Made by a program: the position numbers and the translations under genes. A stretch of DNA of 48,914 bases from the sequence record PZ445533.1. One strand, 5' to 3'. Below, one piece after another: positions 15,898 through 41,485 of this stretch. The DNA is from a phage. Each line of letters opens with the position of its first letter. Position 1 is the stretch's first letter. A model generated the notes under the pieces. That model had not been told where the DNA came from. It saw only the letters and a list, made by a program, of their open reading frames with translations, and ran no database searches.

Positions 15898-18800
15898 ATG
15901 GCTAAATATATGATAAGCGGCAGTAAGGGCGGAAGCAAAAAGCCATACGTGCCAAAAGAGATGGAAGATAACCTGATCTCGATAAACAAGATTAAAGTTT
16001 TGCTGGCTGTATCTGATGGCGAGTGCGATCCAGATTTCACGTTGCGCGATCTTTATCTTGATGATGTTCCGGTTATTGCCAGCGATGGCACTGTTAACTA
16101 CGAGGGAGTTACGGCTGAATATCGACCAGGTACGCAGACGCAAGATTACATCCAGGGTTTTACTGACACATCAAGTGAGGTGACAGTTGCAAGAGATATT
16201 ACCGGAGACAATCCTTATGTTATTTCTGTTACAAATAAAAATCTATCTGCGGTAAGAATAAAGATCCTGATGCCAGTAGGCATTAAAACAGAGGATAACG
16301 GCGATCTTGTTGGCGTAAGGGTTGAGTATGCCGTAGATATGGCTGTTGATGGCGGTTCTTATAGCGAGGTTATGAGAGATGTAATTGACGGCAAGACAAG
16401 ATCAGGATACGACCGCAGCAGAAGGATTGATCTTCCTAAGTTTGATGAGCGCGTTTTAATCCGAGTAAAGCGACTGACTCCAGACAGCACATCTTCAAAG
16501 GTGACTGATAAAATCAAGCTGCAAAGTTACGCTGAGGTTGTTGATGCAAAATTCCGCTATCCTCTGACTGGACTTGTATTCGTAGAATTTGACAGCGAAT
16601 TGTTTCCTACGCAAATCCCTAACATTTCTATAAAAAAGAAATGGAAGATTATTAATGTGCCAAGCAACTATGATCCAATATCAAGAGAATATCACGGGTC
16701 ATGGGATGGGACTTTTAAAAAAGCGTGGTCAAATAATCCTGCTTGGGTTCTTTATGATCTGGTGACAAATCAGCGTTATGGACTTGATCAGCGAGAGTTA
16801 GGAATACAGATCGACAAGTGGAGCTTATACGAGGCGGGCGTTTACTGCGATCAGAAAGTTCCAGACGGTAAAGGCGGCACTGAGCCTCGCTACCTATGCG
16901 ATGTGGTGATTCAGAATCAAGTTGAGGCTTATCAGCTAATCCGTGACATTTGCTCAATCTTTCGCGGAATGAGTTTTTGGAATGGTGAGAGCTTATCAAT
17001 CGTGATTGATAAGCCGCGCGATCCATCATACGTGTTTACTAATGAAAACGTCATCAACGGTGATTTTCAGTACACAAACGCAAGCGAAAAAAGCATGTAC
17101 ACGCAGTGTAACGTGACGTTTGACGACGAACAAAACATGTATCAGCAGGACGTAGAGGGGGTTTTTGATACTGAGGCGGCATTACGATTTGGATACAACC
17201 CAACAAGCATTACAGCGATCGGGTGTACGCGCAGGAGCGAAGCGAATCGTCGCGGTCGTTGGGTTTTGAAAACAAACCTTAGAAGCACTACTGTAAACTT
17301 TGCTACCGGACTAGAGGGGATGATTCCATCAATAGGTGATGTTATTGCTATCGCTGATAATTTTCAGAGTAGCAACCTAACGTTAAACCTATCGGGCCGA
17401 GTAATGGAAGTTTCAGGGCTGCAGGTTTTCGTTCCGTTTAAGGTTGATGCTCGCCCTGGTGATTTTATTATCATCAACAAGCCGGACGGCAAGCCAGTTA
17501 AGCGCACGATCTCAAAGGTTAGCGCAGACGGAAAAACCATTGAGTTAAATATTGGATTTGGTTTTGATGTTAAGCCTGATACTGTTTTTGCGATTGACCG
17601 TACTGATCTTGCGTTGCAGCAATACGTTGTGACAACCATCAGCAAGGGTGATGACGAAAACGAGTTTACCTATTCAATCACGGCTGTAGAGTACGATCCG
17701 AACAAATACGACGAGATTGATTATGGAGTAAACATTGATGACAGACCGACTTCAATTGTTCAGCCTGACGTGATGGCAGCGCCTGAGAACGTTAAGATCT
17801 CATCTTATTCTCGCGTCGTGCAGGGTGTTAGCGTTGAGACTATGGTTGTTTCATGGGATAAGGTTCCTTACGCATCGCTTTATGAAATGCAGTGGCGAAA
17901 AGGTGATGGTAACTGGCTGAATACGCCGCAGACCGCTAACAAAGAGATAGAGGTAGAAGGGATTTACTCTGGCAACTACCAAGTAAGGGTGAGATCCGTT
18001 TCTGCAAGCGGTAACGCTTCCCCGTGGTCAAAGATTGCAACCGCCACTCTGACAGGTAAAGTTGGCGAGCCAGGAGCGCCGATTAATCTTACGGCTTCTG
18101 ATAATGAAGTTTTTGGCATTCGTGTCAAATGGGGTATGCCGGAAGGATCAGGCGATACGGCTTACATTGAGCTTCACCAATCGCCAGACGGAACGGTTGA
18201 AAACTCAAGTCTGCTTACGCTGATTCCATATCCTCAATATGAGTATTGGCATAGCACGTTACCAGCGGGGCAAGTTGTATGGTATAGAATCCGCAGCGTT
18301 GACAGAATAGGCAACGTTTCAAGCTGGACTGACTTTGTTCGCGGCATGGCGTCAGATGACGTTGAATCTGTTTTGGGCGACATTCTGGACAAGATTTTTG
18401 ATACAGAAGCTGGTCAAGAAATCAAAGAGAACGCCATAGACAGTGCCAATAAAATCAAAGACCAGGCGCAATCAATCATACAGAACGCGTTGGCAAATGA
18501 TGCAGATGTGAAGTGGACGCGAGTGCAAAACGGAAAGCGCAAGGCTGAATATGGTCATGCTCTTGAGCTTATCGCCAATGAAACAGAAGCGCGCGTAACT
18601 CAAATCGAAGAGTTAAGGGCTTCAATTGATGGCGAGATAACATCAAGCATCAAGACAGTGCAGGAGGCAATTGCCACTGAATCAGAGACGCGAGCGACTC
18701 AAATTCAGCAGCTTGATTCTAAATTCACAAAAGAAATCGACGGCGTGCGCAAGGATACTTCTGCAAGCATTAGCGATGTAAGGCAGACAATCACTAACGA

Positions 18801-19476
18801 GTCAGAAGCGCGCGCTCAGGCCGTTCAGCAGCTTGACGCTAAGTTCACGAAAGAGATAAACGACCTTGACGGAGTTATCAAAACAGAAGTCGAGGCTAAC
18901 ATCTCAGAAGTGAAACAGGCGATCGCCAATGAGACAGAGGCAAGGGTTCAGGCTGACCAGGCATTAACAGCACGATTTGGCGACGTTGAATCTGCATTGG
19001 TTGAAAAGTTGGATTCTTGGGCGAGCGTTGATTCAGTTGGCGCTAAATACGCTATGAAACTTGGCCTTACTTACAAAGGCCAGCAATACAGCGCAGGAAT
19101 GGTGATGCAGCTTTCGCAGGGTTCATCCGGCCTTATCTCGCAAATTTTGTTTGATGCTAACAGGTTCGCCATTATGACTAGCTCTACTGGAGGGACTTTT
19201 ACTTTGCCTTTCGTGGTTGAGAATAATCAGGTTTTCATTAATAGTCTTTTGGTGAAGAACGGTTCAATCACTAATGCGATGATTGGTAATGTGATTCAGT
19301 CAAACAACTTTGTTCAAAACCAGCAAGGATGGAGGCTTGATAAAAACGGAATCTTTGAGAATTACGGATCAACGCCAGGAGAAGGAGCTACTAAATTCAC
19401 CAATGAGGGATTGAAGGTAAAAGATGCAAACGGAGTATTGAGGGTTGAAGTCGGAAGGATTACCGGAAGCTGGTAA
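15898..19476 (+). CDS. Central tail fibre / host specificity protein J-like
   Basis: ~1190 aa ORF after M-L-K-I; C-terminal coiled repeat region (ETEARVTQIEEL-type repeats); strong terminator after stop. Confidence 0.8.
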   Translation: MAKYMISGSKGGSKKPYVPKEMEDNLISINKIKVLLAVSDGECDPDFTLRDLYLDDVPVIASDGTVNYEGVTAEYRPGTQTQDYIQGFTDTSSEVTVARDITGDNPYVISVTNKNLSAVRIKILMPVGIKTEDNGDLVGVRVEYAVDMAVDGGSYSEVMRDVIDGKTRSGYDRSRRIDLPKFDERVLIRVKRLTPDSTSSKVTDKIKLQSYAEVVDAKFRYPLTGLVFVEFDSELFPTQIPNISIKKKWKIINVPSNYDPISREYHGSWDGTFKKAWSNNPAWVLYDLVTNQRYGLDQRELGIQIDKWSLYEAGVYCDQKVPDGKGGTEPRYLCDVVIQNQVEAYQLIRDICSIFRGMSFWNGESLSIVIDKPRDPSYVFTNENVINGDFQYTNASEKSMYTQCNVTFDDEQNMYQQDVEGVFDTEAALRFGYNPTSITAIGCTRRSEANRRGRWVLKTNLRSTTVNFATGLEGMIPSIGDVIAIADNFQSSNLTLNLSGRVMEVSGLQVFVPFKVDARPGDFIIINKPDGKPVKRTISKVSADGKTIELNIGFGFDVKPDTVFAIDRTDLALQQYVVTTISKGDDENEFTYSITAVEYDPNKYDEIDYGVNIDDRPTSIVQPDVMAAPENVKISSYSRVVQGVSVETMVVSWDKVPYASLYEMQWRKGDGNWLNTPQTANKEIEVEGIYSGNYQVRVRSVSASGNASPWSKIATATLTGKVGEPGAPINLTASDNEVFGIRVKWGMPEGSGDTAYIELHQSPDGTVENSSLLTLIPYPQYEYWHSTLPAGQVVWYRIRSVDRIGNVSSWTDFVRGMASDDVESVLGDILDKIFDTEAGQEIKENAIDSANKIKDQAQSIIQNALANDADVKWTRVQNGKRKAEYGHALELIANETEARVTQIEELRASIDGEITSSIKTVQEAIATESETRATQIQQLDSKFTKEIDGVRKDTSASISDVRQTITNESEARAQAVQQLDAKFTKEINDLDGVIKTEVEANISEVKQAIANETEARVQADQALTARFGDVESALVEKLDSWASVDSVGAKYAMKLGLTYKGQQYSAGMVMQLSQGSSGLISQILFDANRFAIMTSSTGGTFTLPFVVENNQVFINSLLVKNGSITNAMIGNVIQSNNFVQNQQGWRLDKNGIFENYGSTPGEGATKFTNEGLKVKDANGVLRVEVGRITGSW

Positions 19477-19500
19477 AAAAAGGGGGCATAGCCCCCTTTA
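19474..19500. terminator. Bidirectional terminator between J (+) and cor operon (-)
   Basis: A7 GGGGGC ATA GCCCCC TTT. Confidence 0.6.
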
Positions 19501-19503
19501 ATT

Positions 19504-20118
19504 TTAATCATAGTGTGATGCATTTATAACCAAAACAGATGAAGCGGTGTAAATACCAACAGGTCCAGGAGTTTGTGCAACCTGCCTAGAAAAAGAGTAG
19601 ATCCCGTTACCATACGCGGCAGCTTGAGACTCAAAAATCATGAATCCACCTAAAGCCGGATTAGGAACAGAGTTTAATGCTGTCAGTGATGGCATTATGG
19701 CGCAAGGATAGCCCATGTTAACATCAAATGCGATCCCGCTTACGCCTACTTGCTTTGCATCTAGCGGCCTCATTTTTCCATGATAAACCATTTCACCATG
19801 AGCATTATAAAACGCTATGCCGTGACTACCTGGGGGAGTAACCATATTACTAAAAGCATAAACAATAACCTCACCCTGATTATCAGATCTATCAAGTCTT
19901 ATTGCGTGCCTTCCACCATTGTTAAATTGCGTGAATGATATGTATGATTTAGCGGTCAATCTAACAAAGAAAAAACATACCCTATCAACAGGAATTGACG
20001 AAGTAAAAACGGTTCCGGTATTAGCAGATATTACAGCCCGATCAATTAGATTAACTGGAGTGAAATCTGGACTTAACCATAACGATCCGTCTGATTTTTT
20101 TATACTCATCCCGTACAT
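19504..20118 (-). CDS. Hypothetical protein, third gene of cor operon
   Basis: 204 aa; GGTGA RBS; overlaps upstream gene end. Confidence 0.5.
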   Translation of the reverse strand: MYGMSIKKSDGSLWLSPDFTPVNLIDRAVISANTGTVFTSSIPVDRVCFFFVRLTAKSYISFTQFNNGGRHAIRLDRSDNQGEVIVYAFSNMVTPPGSHGIAFYNAHGEMVYHGKMRPLDAKQVGVSGIAFDVNMGYPCAIMPSLTALNSVPNPALGGFMIFESQAAAYGNGIYSFSRQVAQTPGPVGIYTASSVLVINASHYD

Positions 20119-20120
20119 TA

Positions 20121-20399
20121 TCACCCCCAAAAAGTATATATATATCTTGAATCAGATCCAGAAAGCCCACTCCATGTAACGGTGTCGCCACTCACCCCTA
20201 AGTTTGGTGCGCCAGGGTCGCCACCACGCCAGGAATTCATGCCAACATATATTGCTTTCAATGATTTACCTGGCGGCCTGTTTTGGTAAGTCTTGCTACC
20301 TGATGGCTGAGTGAATTTATCAAGGAAGAAAACAGGCGTTAAAAGTCCTGTAACTTCCCTTCCTCGATCGTCATATATTGCATAACCATATTGCGCCAT
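20121..20399 (-). CDS. Hypothetical protein
   Basis: 92 aa; TAATG overlap with cor-like gene. Confidence 0.5.
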   Translation of the reverse strand: MAQYGYAIYDDRGREVTGLLTPVFFLDKFTQPSGSKTYQNRPPGKSLKAIYVGMNSWRGGDPGAPNLGVSGDTVTWSGLSGSDSRYIYTFWG

Positions 20400-20674
20400 T
20401 AATTACACCTCAAATCAATAAATTTACTTTCATTTTGCCAACGGTTGATAAATTTAACTTCTTTATTGTCAACGCTCAACCTGTATTGCTTTTGGCTGAA
20501 TCTGTTTTCGCGGACTGCATTAATTTTGACTTCATGTAACCCGTTAACAGGGAATGTTTTAACGTTAAATTTTGCCGTGCAATCGATCTCCTTGAAGTTG
20601 CCAGTAGGCGACGCTGCGCATCCTGTCAGAGCGGCTACAGTGGCGATAACTGCGATTAACTTTTTCATCTTCAA
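20399..20674 (-). CDS. Lipoprotein, Cor-like superinfection exclusion candidate
   Basis: 91 aa; signal peptide plus lipobox LTGC; located next to J on opposite strand as cor is in T1/phi80-like phages; motif-type promoter cassette upstream. Confidence 0.55.
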   Translation of the reverse strand: MKMKKLIAVIATVAALTGCAASPTGNFKEIDCTAKFNVKTFPVNGLHEVKINAVRENRFSQKQYRLSVDNKEVKFINRWQNESKFIDLRCN

Positions 20675-20679
20675 TACTC

Positions 20680-20745
20680 CTTAGTTGTTGTTGGATGCAA
20701 CTATACACGATCTTGGGCATCGCGTTTAGCAAAAAGTGCTATTTG
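20680..20745 (-). promoter_or_regulatory. Motif cassette upstream of cor-like operon
   Basis: Minus-strand reading AAATAGCACTTTTTGCTAAA, imperfect hairpin, TATAGT, CATCCAACAACAAC, RBS AAGGAG. Confidence 0.45.
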
Positions 20746-20749
20746 TTAT

Positions 20750-21110
20750 TTTTTGTTTTCCGGTGTTATCGAATTTAAGACGGCGTAAATTTAGCGCAAA
20801 ATTTAGACAACATAAGATCAATAAACAATCAATAAAATAGATATATACATATAAAATCAATAGTTTATTTATTTATGTATGTATATTTGTTTTTTCTTGT
20901 TATCTGCGTTTCTTGTGGTTTTGGTTGTTTGTGGTGATTTTTCTTTCTGAGTATCTGTATGTGCCATCATTCATGTGTATGTATATAATCCGGCGTATCT
21001 GAGAGAACAGGGGAACAAGAAAAATAACGCATATTAATCATTAACTTATGAGTCAAATCTGTTTTCTTGCCATCTGAGAACATTTAGAAAACAGAAAAAA
21101 CAAAACAGCT
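20750..21110. repeat. AT-rich divergent control region A with alternating purine-pyrimidine tracts and short iteron-like repeats
   Basis: ATCAATA x3, AAATTTAG x2, TGTATGTATAT tracts; homologous to 41200-41480. Confidence 0.5.
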
Positions 21111-21111
21111 A

Positions 21112-21139
21112 TTGACTAAATCAACCAAATGGCTACAAT
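21112..21139 (+). promoter_or_regulatory. Sigma70-like promoter (TTGACT-16-TACAAT) for recombination operon
   Basis: Read directly: TTGACT 21112-21117, 16-nt spacer, TACAAT 21134-21139, about 30 nt upstream of ATG 21170. Confidence 0.55.
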
Positions 21140-21169
21140 GCACGCATAAAGCAACAAGGAGCATTAAAG

Positions 21170-22225
21170 ATGAGTGATTTTAACGCCTACACTAGCGAAG
21201 AAATGAGCAACGAGCTTTATCATGATCCTAACGCGTGGACGGCTGAATATGTCAGCGGTTCCAGCCTGGCGGAGATTTACAGCACTTGCCCGGCGTACTG
21301 GAAGTACAAGCCGCGCCAGGAAACTAAAGCACTTGTTTTCGGTACGCAGTCGCATACCAACTTTGAAAGCAAGGAGCTATTCGAAAAAACATATCGCCGC
21401 GCACCGTCGCAGGATGATTTTAAAGATCTGATCACTAGCCAAACGGCGTTAGCATCAAAGCTGAAATCTTTTGGCCTGAAAGGTACAACGGGTAAACAAT
21501 ACCCTGAATTACTGGAAATGCTGTACAAGTGCGGCGAGGATCTCAATGTGTGGTGGCTTATCGAAATGATGGCAGAATGCCAGGCCGCAGCGGACGGAGT
21601 GCAGTTAATAGACGCTAAAGATTATGATGCCTGTGTAGCGATGCGGCGCGTACTTGAGGCCATACCGGAGCATAACGCTTGCATGAACAGCCCAACCGCG
21701 CAGCGTGAAATGTCAATATTTGGGATCATCAACGGCGTAAAAGTAAAAGTGCGTCTTGATCACGTTGACGTAAACAAGGATGTAAAGGCAACAATCATTA
21801 ACGGTTACGACGAAAAAGGCAGGCCGATTTATGAAGAAGTCACCTATCCAGAAGCGGTGATTATCACTGACTACAAAACAACGGTTAGCGCAAATCCGGT
21901 TGACTTCCAGCGCCTGGCTTACAATCACGGCTATTATCTTAAAATGGCTTTGCAACATGACTTATTCAAAAAGGCGTATCCAGACGAGGAAAGGCCAGTA
22001 ATTGTAAGATTGCTTGCGCAGGAGAAGAAAGAGCCTTACTTGCCGCTTGCTTTCCGCATGAATATTGAGCAATTGAAGATCGGGCGAATCCAGTACATGA
22101 GCGTGATCAACAAGTTCAACGTTTGCCAGCAGTTAGACGAATGGCCTTCGTATGCAAACGGGCAACCGGAAATTGATCTTGATACTCCTGATTGGGTACG
22201 CGCTCAATTCAGGCAGTATCTATAA
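21170..22225 (+). CDS. PD-(D/E)XK family exonuclease (RecE/RecB-like recombination nuclease)
   Basis: 351 aa; hhhDYKT motif (VIITDYKTT) with upstream acidic residues; first gene after sigma70-like promoter, followed by Erf and SSB. Confidence 0.55.
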   Translation: MSDFNAYTSEEMSNELYHDPNAWTAEYVSGSSLAEIYSTCPAYWKYKPRQETKALVFGTQSHTNFESKELFEKTYRRAPSQDDFKDLITSQTALASKLKSFGLKGTTGKQYPELLEMLYKCGEDLNVWWLIEMMAECQAAADGVQLIDAKDYDACVAMRRVLEAIPEHNACMNSPTAQREMSIFGIINGVKVKVRLDHVDVNKDVKATIINGYDEKGRPIYEEVTYPEAVIITDYKTTVSANPVDFQRLAYNHGYYLKMALQHDLFKKAYPDEERPVIVRLLAQEKKEPYLPLAFRMNIEQLKIGRIQYMSVINKFNVCQQLDEWPSYANGQPEIDLDTPDWVRAQFRQYL

Positions 22226-22297
22226 CAAACTAAACAAATAGCTAAACTTTTATAATGGTTGGTGATATAATTCGACAGCCAGATAACGGGAGAATGA

Positions 22298-22954
<657 letters not shown>

Positions 22955-40949: not shown

Positions 40950-41485
40950 ACGGTTAGCACCAGGATTGTGATCGAAATAATCAAAAGTAATCATTCGTAA
41001 TCAAATCACGTCAAAATGATGATTGCCTTTGCAAATTTGATGAGAAAAGTAATCACGTTTAATCATTGGTTGCAGGGGAGATAGTGAAACCCTCCACTCT
41101 TGCCTCACTTTTCCGCCTGGCTGTCAGTGGTTGTTATGTTCCGTTCCCGCCTGTTCTTTTGTTGACCTTCCGCAAAATACGATAACAAAAAATAACAAAC
41201 AATACCTATATAATACATTGAAAAATAAGGATTATTTATTTATATGTATCTATATATTCTCTTTTGTTATCTTGGTTATTGTGGTATTTGGTGGGGGTAT
41301 ATAGTTTTTGTGTATCTGTATGTGTGTATGGGTATGTAGGGGCATATATATCTATATGGCACTTTCCGCGAGAAAACTTCGATAACAGGCAATGATAACA
41401 TTGATTTATAAGGAAAAATAACGCCCATATTGTTATTGTGCCACCATATAAAATTGATAAAACACGCGGGAACAAGAAAAAACAG
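40950..41485. repeat. AT-rich divergent control region B, homologous to region A, with (G)TAATCA iteron-like repeats
   Basis: Five TAATCA copies 40975-41075; shared blocks TTATTTATTTAT, GTATCTGTATGTG, GGGAACAAGAAAAA with region A. Confidence 0.5.

What the first reader, a model, noticed from the sequence alone, without database searches (positions are those of the whole stretch)
19504..20674. Cor-like lipoprotein heading a three-gene operon opposite the J gene
A 91-aa lipoprotein (signal peptide, lipobox LTGC) lies convergent to the central tail fibre gene, the position of cor (FhuA-blocking superinfection exclusion) in T1/phi80-like phages. It is translationally coupled to two further proteins (92 and 204 aa) of unknown function and driven by a motif cassette.
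Basis: partly seen in the sequence, partly recalled or inferred. Interest (0 to 1): 0.45.

Follow-up and report, generated by a model that had tools for sequence, protein, structure and literature searches.

The report
BtuB receptor-recognition cassette of a T1-like phage
The three genes are the swappable host-recognition cassette of a T1-like coliphage: a receptor-binding tail-tip protein, a small partner and a lipoprotein that probably shuts off the same receptor, almost certainly BtuB rather than FhuA; the kind is already described and this is an untested variant.

Summary
Three tightly packed minus-strand genes (lipoprotein 20399-20668, 92 aa 20121-20399, 204 aa 19504-20118) converge on the J gene. 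They end at a shared hairpin terminator and follow a promoter-like motif present 16 times in the window.

The lipoprotein sits exactly where cor sits. In a FhuA-using congener (PeterMerian/Bas05) a genuine cor shares the same promoter box, ribosome-binding site and signal peptide, and divergence starts right after the lipobox. The mature domain, however, does not match the Cor profile.

The cassette is 98-100% identical at protein level to that of FritzSarasin/Bas04, whose receptor is BtuB, and close relatives do not depend on FhuA. The target is therefore most likely BtuB.

This is the published "RBP locus downstream of gpJ", here in its BtuB allele. It is a new member of a known kind. The binding and exclusion functions remain untested.

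The parts
20725..20743 (-). Conserved promoter-associated box AATAGCACTTTTTGCTAAA, one of 16 copies in the window
   Evidence: 16 matches against 0.08 expected; invariant in four phages, including upstream of the genuine cor of Bas05.
20700..20705 (-). TATAGT, a -10-like hexamer inside the invariant GATCGTGTATAGT. It lies 21 nt downstream of TTGCTA, so the spacing is not canonical for sigma-70.
   Evidence: The consensus promoter scan did not call it. Promoter function is inferred from conservation and position only.
20677..20682 (-). Ribosome-binding site AAGGAG for the lipoprotein gene
   Evidence: It lies 8 nt upstream of the ATG at 20668.
20399..20668 (-). Lipoprotein gene: 89 aa, signal peptide residues 1-16, lipid Cys17, invariant Cys30 and Cys88. 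Candidate BtuB-directed superinfection-exclusion factor and allelic counterpart of cor.
20618..20668 (-). Signal-peptide and lipobox coding segment, shared at DNA level with cor of FhuA-type congeners. This is the right-hand recombination arm of the cassette.
   Evidence: homology to Bas05 resumes at 20615; the alignment diverges just after the Cys codon.
20121..20399 (-). 92-aa accessory protein (phrog_557, same family as T1 gp32). No signal peptide or TM segment. Proposed adaptor or chaperone of the receptor-binding protein.
   Evidence: E 4.3e-20; T1 gp32 in phrog_557.
19504..20118 (-). 204-aa all-beta protein (phrog_425, same family as T1 gp31). Candidate BtuB receptor-binding protein.
19479..19499 (.). 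GC-rich hairpin between the convergent J and 204-aa genes. Terminator-like on both strands, with the T-run on the minus strand.
19300..19476 (+). Last ~58 codons of J, which co-segregate with the cassette. This is the left-hand recombination arm and the probable docking tip for the RBP.
   Evidence: identity switches near 19300 from ~97% to Bas05 (FhuA) to 88-100% to Bas04 (BtuB); protein alignment.

Best explanation
The region is the BtuB allele of the receptor-recognition cassette that small T1-like siphophages carry just downstream of the central tail-fibre gene J.

Proposed mechanism:

(1) The 204-aa protein is made in the cytoplasm; it has no export signal. It attaches non-covalently to the extreme C-terminus of the J fibre and binds the extracellular face of the TonB-dependent transporter BtuB, committing the phage to irreversible adsorption and DNA ejection.

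(2) The 92-aa protein is an accessory of that step, either an adaptor or an assembly chaperone. It always travels with the 204-aa family and shares its N-terminal M-x-YG-x-x-I..DG...TP motif.

(3) The lipoprotein is exported and lipidated at Cys17, probably disulphide-stapled (Cys30-Cys88), and sorted to the inner leaflet of the outer membrane. By analogy with T5 Llp on FhuA and Rtp45 on LptD, it binds the periplasmic side of BtuB and alters the extracellular loops. Further phages, and progeny released into cell debris, can then no longer bind.

(4) The three genes form one transcript, from a phage-specific promoter cassette to a hairpin shared with J.

Shown: gene structure, family assignments, the fold of the 204-aa protein, allelic replacement of cor, and the link of this allele to BtuB-dependent phages. 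Inferred: physical binding to BtuB, the exclusion phenotype, the role of the 92-aa protein, and the transcript.
For: Locus identity: the literature places bona fide RBPs and cognate exclusion factors directly downstream of gpJ, with alleles that match receptor use (PMC8594841; 10.64898/2026.04.02.716166; PMC11990801).

BtuB allele: the cassette is 98-100% identical in many Warwickviruses, including Bas04, and homologous in Bas06. Both have BtuB as terminal receptor.

Architecture: Oekolampad has the same layout, with the exclusion lipoprotein followed by the RBP on the strand opposite J. The lipoprotein family there (Rtp45, 35% identical to the Oekolampad protein) was shown by cryo-EM to bind the periplasmic side of LptDE.

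Allelic with cor: the promoter box, RBS and signal peptide are shared with the genuine cor of Bas05.

Cassette behaviour: the mosaic breakpoints lie at ~19300 in J and at the lipobox. The same three-gene order occurs co-directional with J in the unrelated phage SaltyDalty.

Against: No experiment on this allele exists for either RBP-BtuB binding or exclusion.

Homologues of the 92/204 pair also occur without any lipoprotein in Nonagvirus JenP2, and next to lom in short-tailed Stx phages that lack a J-type fibre. The pair's role may therefore not be identical everywhere.

A 2026 paper proposes instead that these two proteins are membrane proteins acting in exclusion (PMC13164509).

The promoter is non-canonical and was not called by the consensus scan.
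Confidence: 0.72

Rival explanations
1. One reading: the lipoprotein is a true Cor that inactivates FhuA, as in T1 and phi80, and the two downstream genes are unrelated passengers.
For: There is a phrog_1119 'Cor' hit at E 8.5e-8. The gene occupies the same position relative to J and exoVIII as T1 cor. Two Cys in the mature part sit in similar relative positions..DCTA.. near the N-terminus and a Cys 2-3 residues from the C-terminus. The mature domain of a 56%-identical relative (Bas06) retains a marginal, colinear Cor match (E 0.028).
Against: The Cor hit is carried by the signal peptide. It is lost for the mature domain, whereas mature T1 Cor keeps E 3e-19. The validated LptD-specific lipoprotein of Oekolampad gives the same kind of signal-peptide-only Cor hit. 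hhalign on the mature domains gives ~1% probability. Phages with this cassette use BtuB, not FhuA. The FhuA-using congener carries a different, genuine Cor at the same site.
Confidence: 0.05
2. The 92- and 204-aa proteins are not virion proteins but membrane-associated partners of the lipoprotein, and all three together form an exclusion module (the view offered in PMC13164509).
For: [quoted passage not shown] The genes are co-transcribed with the lipoprotein from a promoter box that is otherwise found mostly in the non-structural half of the genome. The pair sits next to the moron lom in Stx phages. That paper found no Foldseek or HHpred hits for the T1 homologues.
Confidence: 0.1
3. The lipoprotein has a role other than receptor blocking, for example helping to release or protect the RBP, or acting in lysis like an o-spanin.
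For: No exclusion assay exists for this allele. Its fold is a generic small beta-barrel. Its closest structural neighbours in BFVD are uncharacterised lipoproteins of Proteus and Providencia phages.
Against: It replaces cor precisely, keeping cor's expression signals. It co-varies with the RBP allele across phages. The analogous lipoproteins at this locus (Cor, Llp, Rtp45) are all receptor blockers. A candidate lysis block lies elsewhere in the window (about 33.7-34.6 kb); that placement is by analogy with the T1 gene order and was not checked here.
Confidence: 0.1

Closest known systems
Oekolampad (Bas18) / Rtp LptD module: RBP (PDB 9RPT chain C) plus exclusion lipoprotein (SE_Oeko / Rtp45)
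   Different: The receptor is LptD, not BtuB. That RBP is 321 aa and belongs to phrog_1265, with no significant sequence similarity (hhalign E 0.29). There is no separate 92-aa gene. Its lipoprotein belongs to another family, phrog_4281.
T1 / Bas05 FhuA module: gp32 (phrog_557), gp31 (phrog_425) and Cor (phrog_1119)
   Same: The small and large proteins fall in the same two PHROG families. The lipoprotein gene is in the same slot, divergent from exoVIII. In Bas05 it has the same promoter box, RBS and signal peptide.
   Different: The receptor is FhuA. The pair is co-directional with J, and only cor is on the opposite strand. Pairwise similarity of the pair to T1 is insignificant. The mature lipoprotein is not recognisably Cor.
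T5 Llp (PDB 8A60 chain B), the FhuA-blocking lytic conversion lipoprotein
   Different: There is no sequence similarity. The target (FhuA) and the phage family differ. The structural match is not specific, since generic SH3-like domains score as high.
Receptor-blocking lipoproteins of BtuB-using T5-like phages (BF23, Yersinia phage phiR2-01)
   Same: The presumed target (BtuB) and logic are the same. The existence of the BF23 protein is from my own knowledge (Mondigler et al. 2006). The phiR2-01 'receptor-blocking protein' appears as a weak structural match (TM 0.51, E 0.35).
   Different: tblastn gave no hit in T5-like phages at E<=0.01. The structural match is weak.

Membership tests
Cor superinfection-exclusion lipoprotein family (phrog_1119) | Mature domain matches the Cor sequence profile | tested here: not met
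   The full-length hit (E 8.5e-8) is lost without the signal peptide. The control, mature T1 Cor, gives E 3.1e-19. The mature domain of relative Bas06 gives a marginal E 0.028. hhalign on mature domains gives ~1% probability.
Cor superinfection-exclusion lipoprotein family (phrog_1119) | Type II signal peptide with lipobox; small size (~75 aa); two Cys in the mature part | tested here: met
   The lipobox is LTG|C. The protein is 89 aa. Cys30 and Cys88 are invariant in 13 sequences. Cor has Cys24 and Cys72.
Cor superinfection-exclusion lipoprotein family (phrog_1119) | Genomic slot of cor, between the J region and exoVIII and divergent from exoVIII | tested here: met
   T1 map. Bas05 map and DNA alignment show a shared promoter, RBS and signal peptide.
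Cor superinfection-exclusion lipoprotein family (phrog_1119) | Excludes FhuA-dependent phages / inactivates FhuA | not testable with these tools
   Circumstantial evidence points away from FhuA: phages with this allele use BtuB and do not depend on FhuA.
Receptor-specificity ('bona fide RBP') locus of small siphoviruses downstream of gpJ (Maffei et al. 2021) | Lies immediately downstream of the gpJ homologue | tested here: met
   J stops at 19476 and the cassette spans 19504-20668.
Receptor-specificity ('bona fide RBP') locus of small siphoviruses downstream of gpJ (Maffei et al. 2021) | Allele co-varies with the experimentally determined terminal receptor, independently of phylogeny | tested here: met
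   Within one genus, Bas04 (this allele) uses BtuB and Bas05 (T1-type allele) uses FhuA. Bas06, in another genus, carries the homologous allele and uses BtuB.
Receptor-specificity ('bona fide RBP') locus of small siphoviruses downstream of gpJ (Maffei et al. 2021) | Encodes a protein that physically binds the receptor | not testable with these tools
   Support is by fold only, plus the AlphaFold3 models of Bas06-BtuB reported in 10.64898/2026.04.02.716166.
phrog_425 / phrog_557 pair (T1 gp31/gp32, N15 gp23/gp22 type) | Profile match over the full length, with the two genes adjacent in the order small then large | tested here: met
   E 1.8e-49 (residues 1-204) and E 4.3e-20 (residues 3-92). T1, Bas05, Bas06 and SaltyDalty give the same families.
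Oekolampad-type RBP fold (PDB 9RPT chain C) | Structural similarity clearly above background | tested here: met
Llp-type exclusion lipoprotein fold (PDB 8A60 chain B) | Structural similarity clearly above background | tested here: inconclusive

The most novel reading that the evidence does not exclude
The FhuA/BtuB-type proteins (phrog_425) and the LptD-type RBPs (phrog_1265), recently described as unrelated families, would be one structural superfamily of monomeric porin-plugging adhesins. They would share an N-terminal docking motif (M-x-YG-x-x-I..DG...TP), which the 92-aa partner also carries.

The whole specificity unit would be exchanged as a cassette: the last ~58 codons of J, the RBP gene, the partner gene and the mature lipoprotein. 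The recombination arms would be the 3' end of J and the signal-peptide codons of the exclusion gene.

This would make the lipoprotein the first T1-family exclusion factor aimed at BtuB, extending Llp-type reverse allostery to a second TonB-dependent transporter.
Probability: 0.45. Interest if true: 0.5.

Novelty: new member of a known kind. Interest (0 to 1): 0.3.

Why it matters
Receptor choice and self-exclusion decide host range, cocktail design and phage-contamination control.

If the cassette works as proposed, it is a compact unit of about 1.3 kb with clear borders that could retarget Warwick-type phages between FhuA and BtuB. Its lipoprotein would give a second test case, alongside FhuA, for how a small periplasmic lipoprotein shuts a TonB-dependent transporter from the inside.

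The analysis also corrects widespread annotations. [quoted passage not shown] 'Cor' hits in this locus can be artefacts of a shared signal peptide.

None of this is surprising to specialists. The locus concept and its link to BtuB are already published.

Tried and rejected
- Pfam gave nothing beyond a sub-threshold lipobox match.
- Sequence searches of the PDB with the three proteins, and with the 204-aa family profile, found nothing useful.
- Pairwise BLAST of the three proteins against T1 gp31, gp32 and Cor was insignificant or limited to the signal peptide.
- The hypothesis that the 92-aa protein is a paralogue of part of the 204-aa protein was not supported. BLAST gave nothing, and hhalign gave E 0.0098 with 4% probability over 19 residues. 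Only a short shared N-terminal motif remains.
- The hypothesis that the Oekolampad RBP (321 aa) is a fusion equivalent to the 92-aa plus 204-aa proteins was not supported (hhalign E 0.48).
- A canonical sigma-70 promoter upstream of the lipoprotein was not found by the scan. TTGCTA and TATAGT are 21 nt apart.
- T1 cor has no AATAGCAC box upstream of it, so the box is not a general feature of cor genes.
- The extreme C-terminus of J does not sort cleanly by receptor across genera, since Bas06 resembles the FhuA type there. Co-segregation is clear only within Warwickvirus.
- The Rtp paper (Wietzorrek 2006) could not be read.

Full report
**What the window is**

The region 19300-21200 is 99.0-99.5% identical to many Escherichia phages of Drexlerviridae, Tempevirinae, genus Warwickvirus, such as tonn, swan01, ityhuna, JLBYU01/16/19 and G3B1. 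The gene order is J, then the three-gene block, then exonuclease VIII, Erf and SSB. This is the T1-family order.

**Checking the observation**

Three minus-strand ORFs lie at 20399-20674, 20121-20399 and 19504-20130.

- The lipoprotein most likely starts at the ATG at 20668 (89 aa), not the TTG at 20674 (91 aa). AAGGAG at 20677-20682 lies 8 nt from the ATG, and GenBank records annotate 89 aa.
- Its N-terminus, MKKLIAVIATVAALTG|C, is a textbook type II signal peptide. Ala at +2 predicts outer-membrane sorting by the established E. coli Lol rule.
- Gene junctions are TAATG (1-nt overlap) and TGAtaATG (2-nt gap), each with a purine-rich Shine-Dalgarno sequence.
- J stops at 19476 and the 204-aa gene stops at 19504. 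The hairpin at 19479-19499 lies between them and is followed by a T-run on the minus strand.
- The 'motif cassette' is real. AATAGCACTTTTTGTTAAA occurs 16 times with up to 3 mismatches, against 0.08 expected. The copy at 20725-20743 points towards the lipoprotein gene and is followed by an invariant GATCGTGTATAGT.
- T1 has 13 copies of the box, but none upstream of its cor gene.

**What the lipoprotein is**

PHROGs assigns it to phrog_1119, 'Cor superinfection exclusion protein', at E 8.5e-8. That hit depends on the signal peptide.

- The mature domain gives no Cor match at E<=1, whereas mature T1 Cor gives 3.1e-19. The mature domain of the 56%-identical Bas06 protein gives a marginal, colinear E 0.028.
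- Profile-profile comparison of the family (13 sequences) with a Cor alignment (20 sequences) reaches 94-96% probability for full length. The local alignment covers only residues 2-36, however, and mature-only comparison gives about 1%.
- As a control, the LptD-specific exclusion lipoprotein of Oekolampad also 'hits' Cor, through residues 1-30 only.
- What the two families do share is the design: a Cys about 13 residues after the lipid Cys (..DCTA.. against ..TCTA..) and a Cys 2-3 residues from the C-terminus. Both are invariant.
- The family is narrow: 12 clusters at >=53% identity, all on ~50-kb contigs. More distant relatives occur in SaltyDalty and in Proteus and Cronobacter phages.

Membership of the Cor family is therefore not shown. 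A Cor/Llp-like design is plausible.

**Why it is nevertheless the counterpart of cor**

PeterMerian/Bas05 belongs to the same genus but depends on FhuA. Its layout is J, then a 103-aa gene, then a 197-aa gene on the J strand, followed by a 75-aa gene on the opposite strand that is a genuine Cor (phrog_1119, E 2.8e-30).

DNA homology between the window and Bas05 runs through J to 19478 and resumes at 20615. The alignment shows identical promoter box, -10-like element, RBS, ATG and signal-peptide codons. Divergence begins right after the lipobox Cys codon. The mature lipoprotein has thus been exchanged for mature Cor while cor's expression and export signals were kept.

On the other side, the window's J is about 97% identical to Bas05 up to about 19300. 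It then switches to 88-100% identity with Bas04. The exchanged unit is therefore about 19300-20617: the last ~58 codons of J, the 204-aa gene, the 92-aa gene and the mature lipoprotein.

**Which receptor**

- FritzSarasin/Bas04 carries this cassette (204 aa 98.5% identical, lipoprotein 97.8%). Its terminal receptor is BtuB (S5 table of PMC8594841).
- KarlJaspers/Bas06 has the homologous three-gene cassette and also uses BtuB.
- The Warwickvirus Arnold, 97% identical to G3B1 (whose region is 99.2% identical to the window), requires BtuB and SdaC.
- Warwickviruses JLBYU01/16/19 do not use FhuA as sole receptor (PMC10373560).

The receptor is thus almost certainly BtuB, not FhuA.

**What the other two proteins are**

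- The 92-aa and 204-aa proteins belong to phrog_557 (E 4.3e-20) and phrog_425 (E 1.8e-49). T1 gp32 and gp31 fall in the same families, as do the pairs in Bas05, Bas06 and SaltyDalty.
[quoted passage not shown] Neither protein has a signal peptide or a hydrophobic segment.
- The AF2 model of the 204-aa protein is confident (pLDDT 87, pTM 0.82) and all-beta, with a disordered N-terminus at residues 1-15.
- That RBP belongs to phrog_1265, to which the 204-aa protein also gave a weak hit (E 0.009). Direct profile comparison is not significant.
- The Oekolampad locus has the same architecture as the window: exclusion lipoprotein first, then the RBP, on the strand opposite J. The lipoprotein family there (Rtp45, 35% identical to the Oekolampad protein) was shown by cryo-EM to bind the periplasmic side of LptDE and to abolish RBP binding (10.1101/2025.07.07.663478).
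- A 2026 preprint reports that a BtuB-specific protein family at this locus is supported as the RBP by AlphaFold3 models with Bas06, and that one or two accessory proteins accompany it.

The same three-gene order occurs co-directional with J in the unclassified phage SaltyDalty. The pair occurs without a lipoprotein in Nonagvirus JenP2, and next to lom in short-tailed Stx phages. The pair is therefore the core unit, and the lipoprotein is an add-on matched to the receptor.

**Mechanism proposed**

The steps are set out under Best explanation. The structural and genetic facts above are shown. Binding to BtuB, exclusion, the role of the 92-aa protein and the transcript are inferred by analogy with pb5/Llp on FhuA (PMC9586334) and RBP_Oeko/Rtp45 on LptDE. 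BtuB is a TonB-dependent transporter, the class for which van den Berg et al. predicted that Llp-type reverse allostery would be general.

**Comparison with the literature and novelty**

The locus concept and its BtuB allele are published. The presence of a Cor-like gene plus a 'membrane-associated protein' in BtuB-using Tempevirinae has also been noted (PMC13164509).

Three points appear to go beyond what I could find in print:

- The 204-aa family has the fold of the LptD RBP, although these families were called unrelated and no structural hit was found for the T1 homologues.
- The 'Cor' annotation of this allele is a signal-peptide effect, explained by an exchange junction exactly at the lipobox.
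- The exchange unit includes the J tip.

These are refinements. The finding is a new, untested member of a known kind.

**Scores**

Confidence in the main explanation is 0.72. Interest is 0.30. The most novel reading not excluded is a single RBP superfamily with a defined exchange cassette and a BtuB-directed exclusion lipoprotein: probability about 0.45, interest if true 0.5.

Noticed in passing
window, 16 sites (e.g. 1565, 6192, 9947, 20725, 26504, 28066, 30555, 31626, 34871, 37033, 37707, 39624, 40929, 42273, 43680, 45986); T1 locus L006, 13 sites: AATAGCACTTTTTGTTAAA is a genome-wide box. It is usually followed ~20 nt later by a small GC-rich inverted repeat and (C/T)ATAAT, and sits ~55 nt upstream of gene starts, mostly in the non-structural half. 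The TTG(T/C)TA to -10 spacing is 21-22 nt, too long for a standard sigma-70 promoter. Two copies (6192, 9947) point against the downstream structural genes.
   Followed up: partly
window 19504-20118 and 20121-20399; L003, L005, L006, L007, L008, L010: Both the small and the large protein of every allele examined (FhuA and BtuB types) begin with M-x-YG-x-x-[ILT]..[DN]G...[TS]P. The validated Oekolampad RBP has a looser version (it begins MGAGILIDYNDGR). The large proteins of the FhuA and BtuB types end in ..xYD. In the AF2 model residues 1-15 are disordered. This may be a docking segment for the J tip. It is not statistically significant by hhalign.
   Followed up: partly
L004 (phage PA28) 4852-5618; 933W L0127 and ~100 Stx-converting phage records: Homologues of the 204-aa protein (44% identical) sit in short-tailed Stx phages between tail-fibre genes and lom. 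A truncated 47-aa remnant of the small partner accompanies them and no lipoprotein is present. Their role in a podovirus tail is unclear.
   Followed up: no
window 20865-20925 and 41232-41292: A 61-nt AT-rich element (TTATTTATTTATGTATGTATATTTG...) is repeated at 70% identity. One copy lies in the divergent intergenic region between the lipoprotein gene and exoVIII, the other about 20 kb away.
   Followed up: no
window 18571-18946 (inside J): Four copies of a ~25-nt core spaced 99-132 nt apart encode a repeated ..ANETEAR..QQLD.KFTKEI.. motif in the distal part of J. It looks like a repeat module of the fibre shaft.
   Followed up: no
window 22225-22301, compared with L001 6002-6259 and L002 61-318: tonn and Bas04 carry an 85-aa ORF between exoVIII and erf. 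RefSeq labels it 'tail length tape measure protein', probably a misannotation. The window lacks this ~250-bp segment.
   Followed up: no
hits H46 and H140-H143 (records MG065643, MG065649, MG065680, MG065681): Four 'Campylobacter phage' records of 49,946 bp carry this T1-like cassette (lipoprotein 52% identical; 204-aa protein 64% in the one record listed for it, H46). They look like T1-like coliphages, so the host assignment is doubtful.
   Followed up: no
NC_048664 (Cronobacter phage vB_CsaP_009) 24701-24967 and 56668-57078; Proteus phages J3S, P59, 3H10_20: Phages of about 90 kb from Cronobacter and Proteus encode a 30%-identical lipoprotein, which is also the best BFVD structural match (TM 0.79). 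In vB_CsaP_009 a partial homologue of the 204-aa protein lies at a separate site, so the two components are unlinked there.
   Followed up: no
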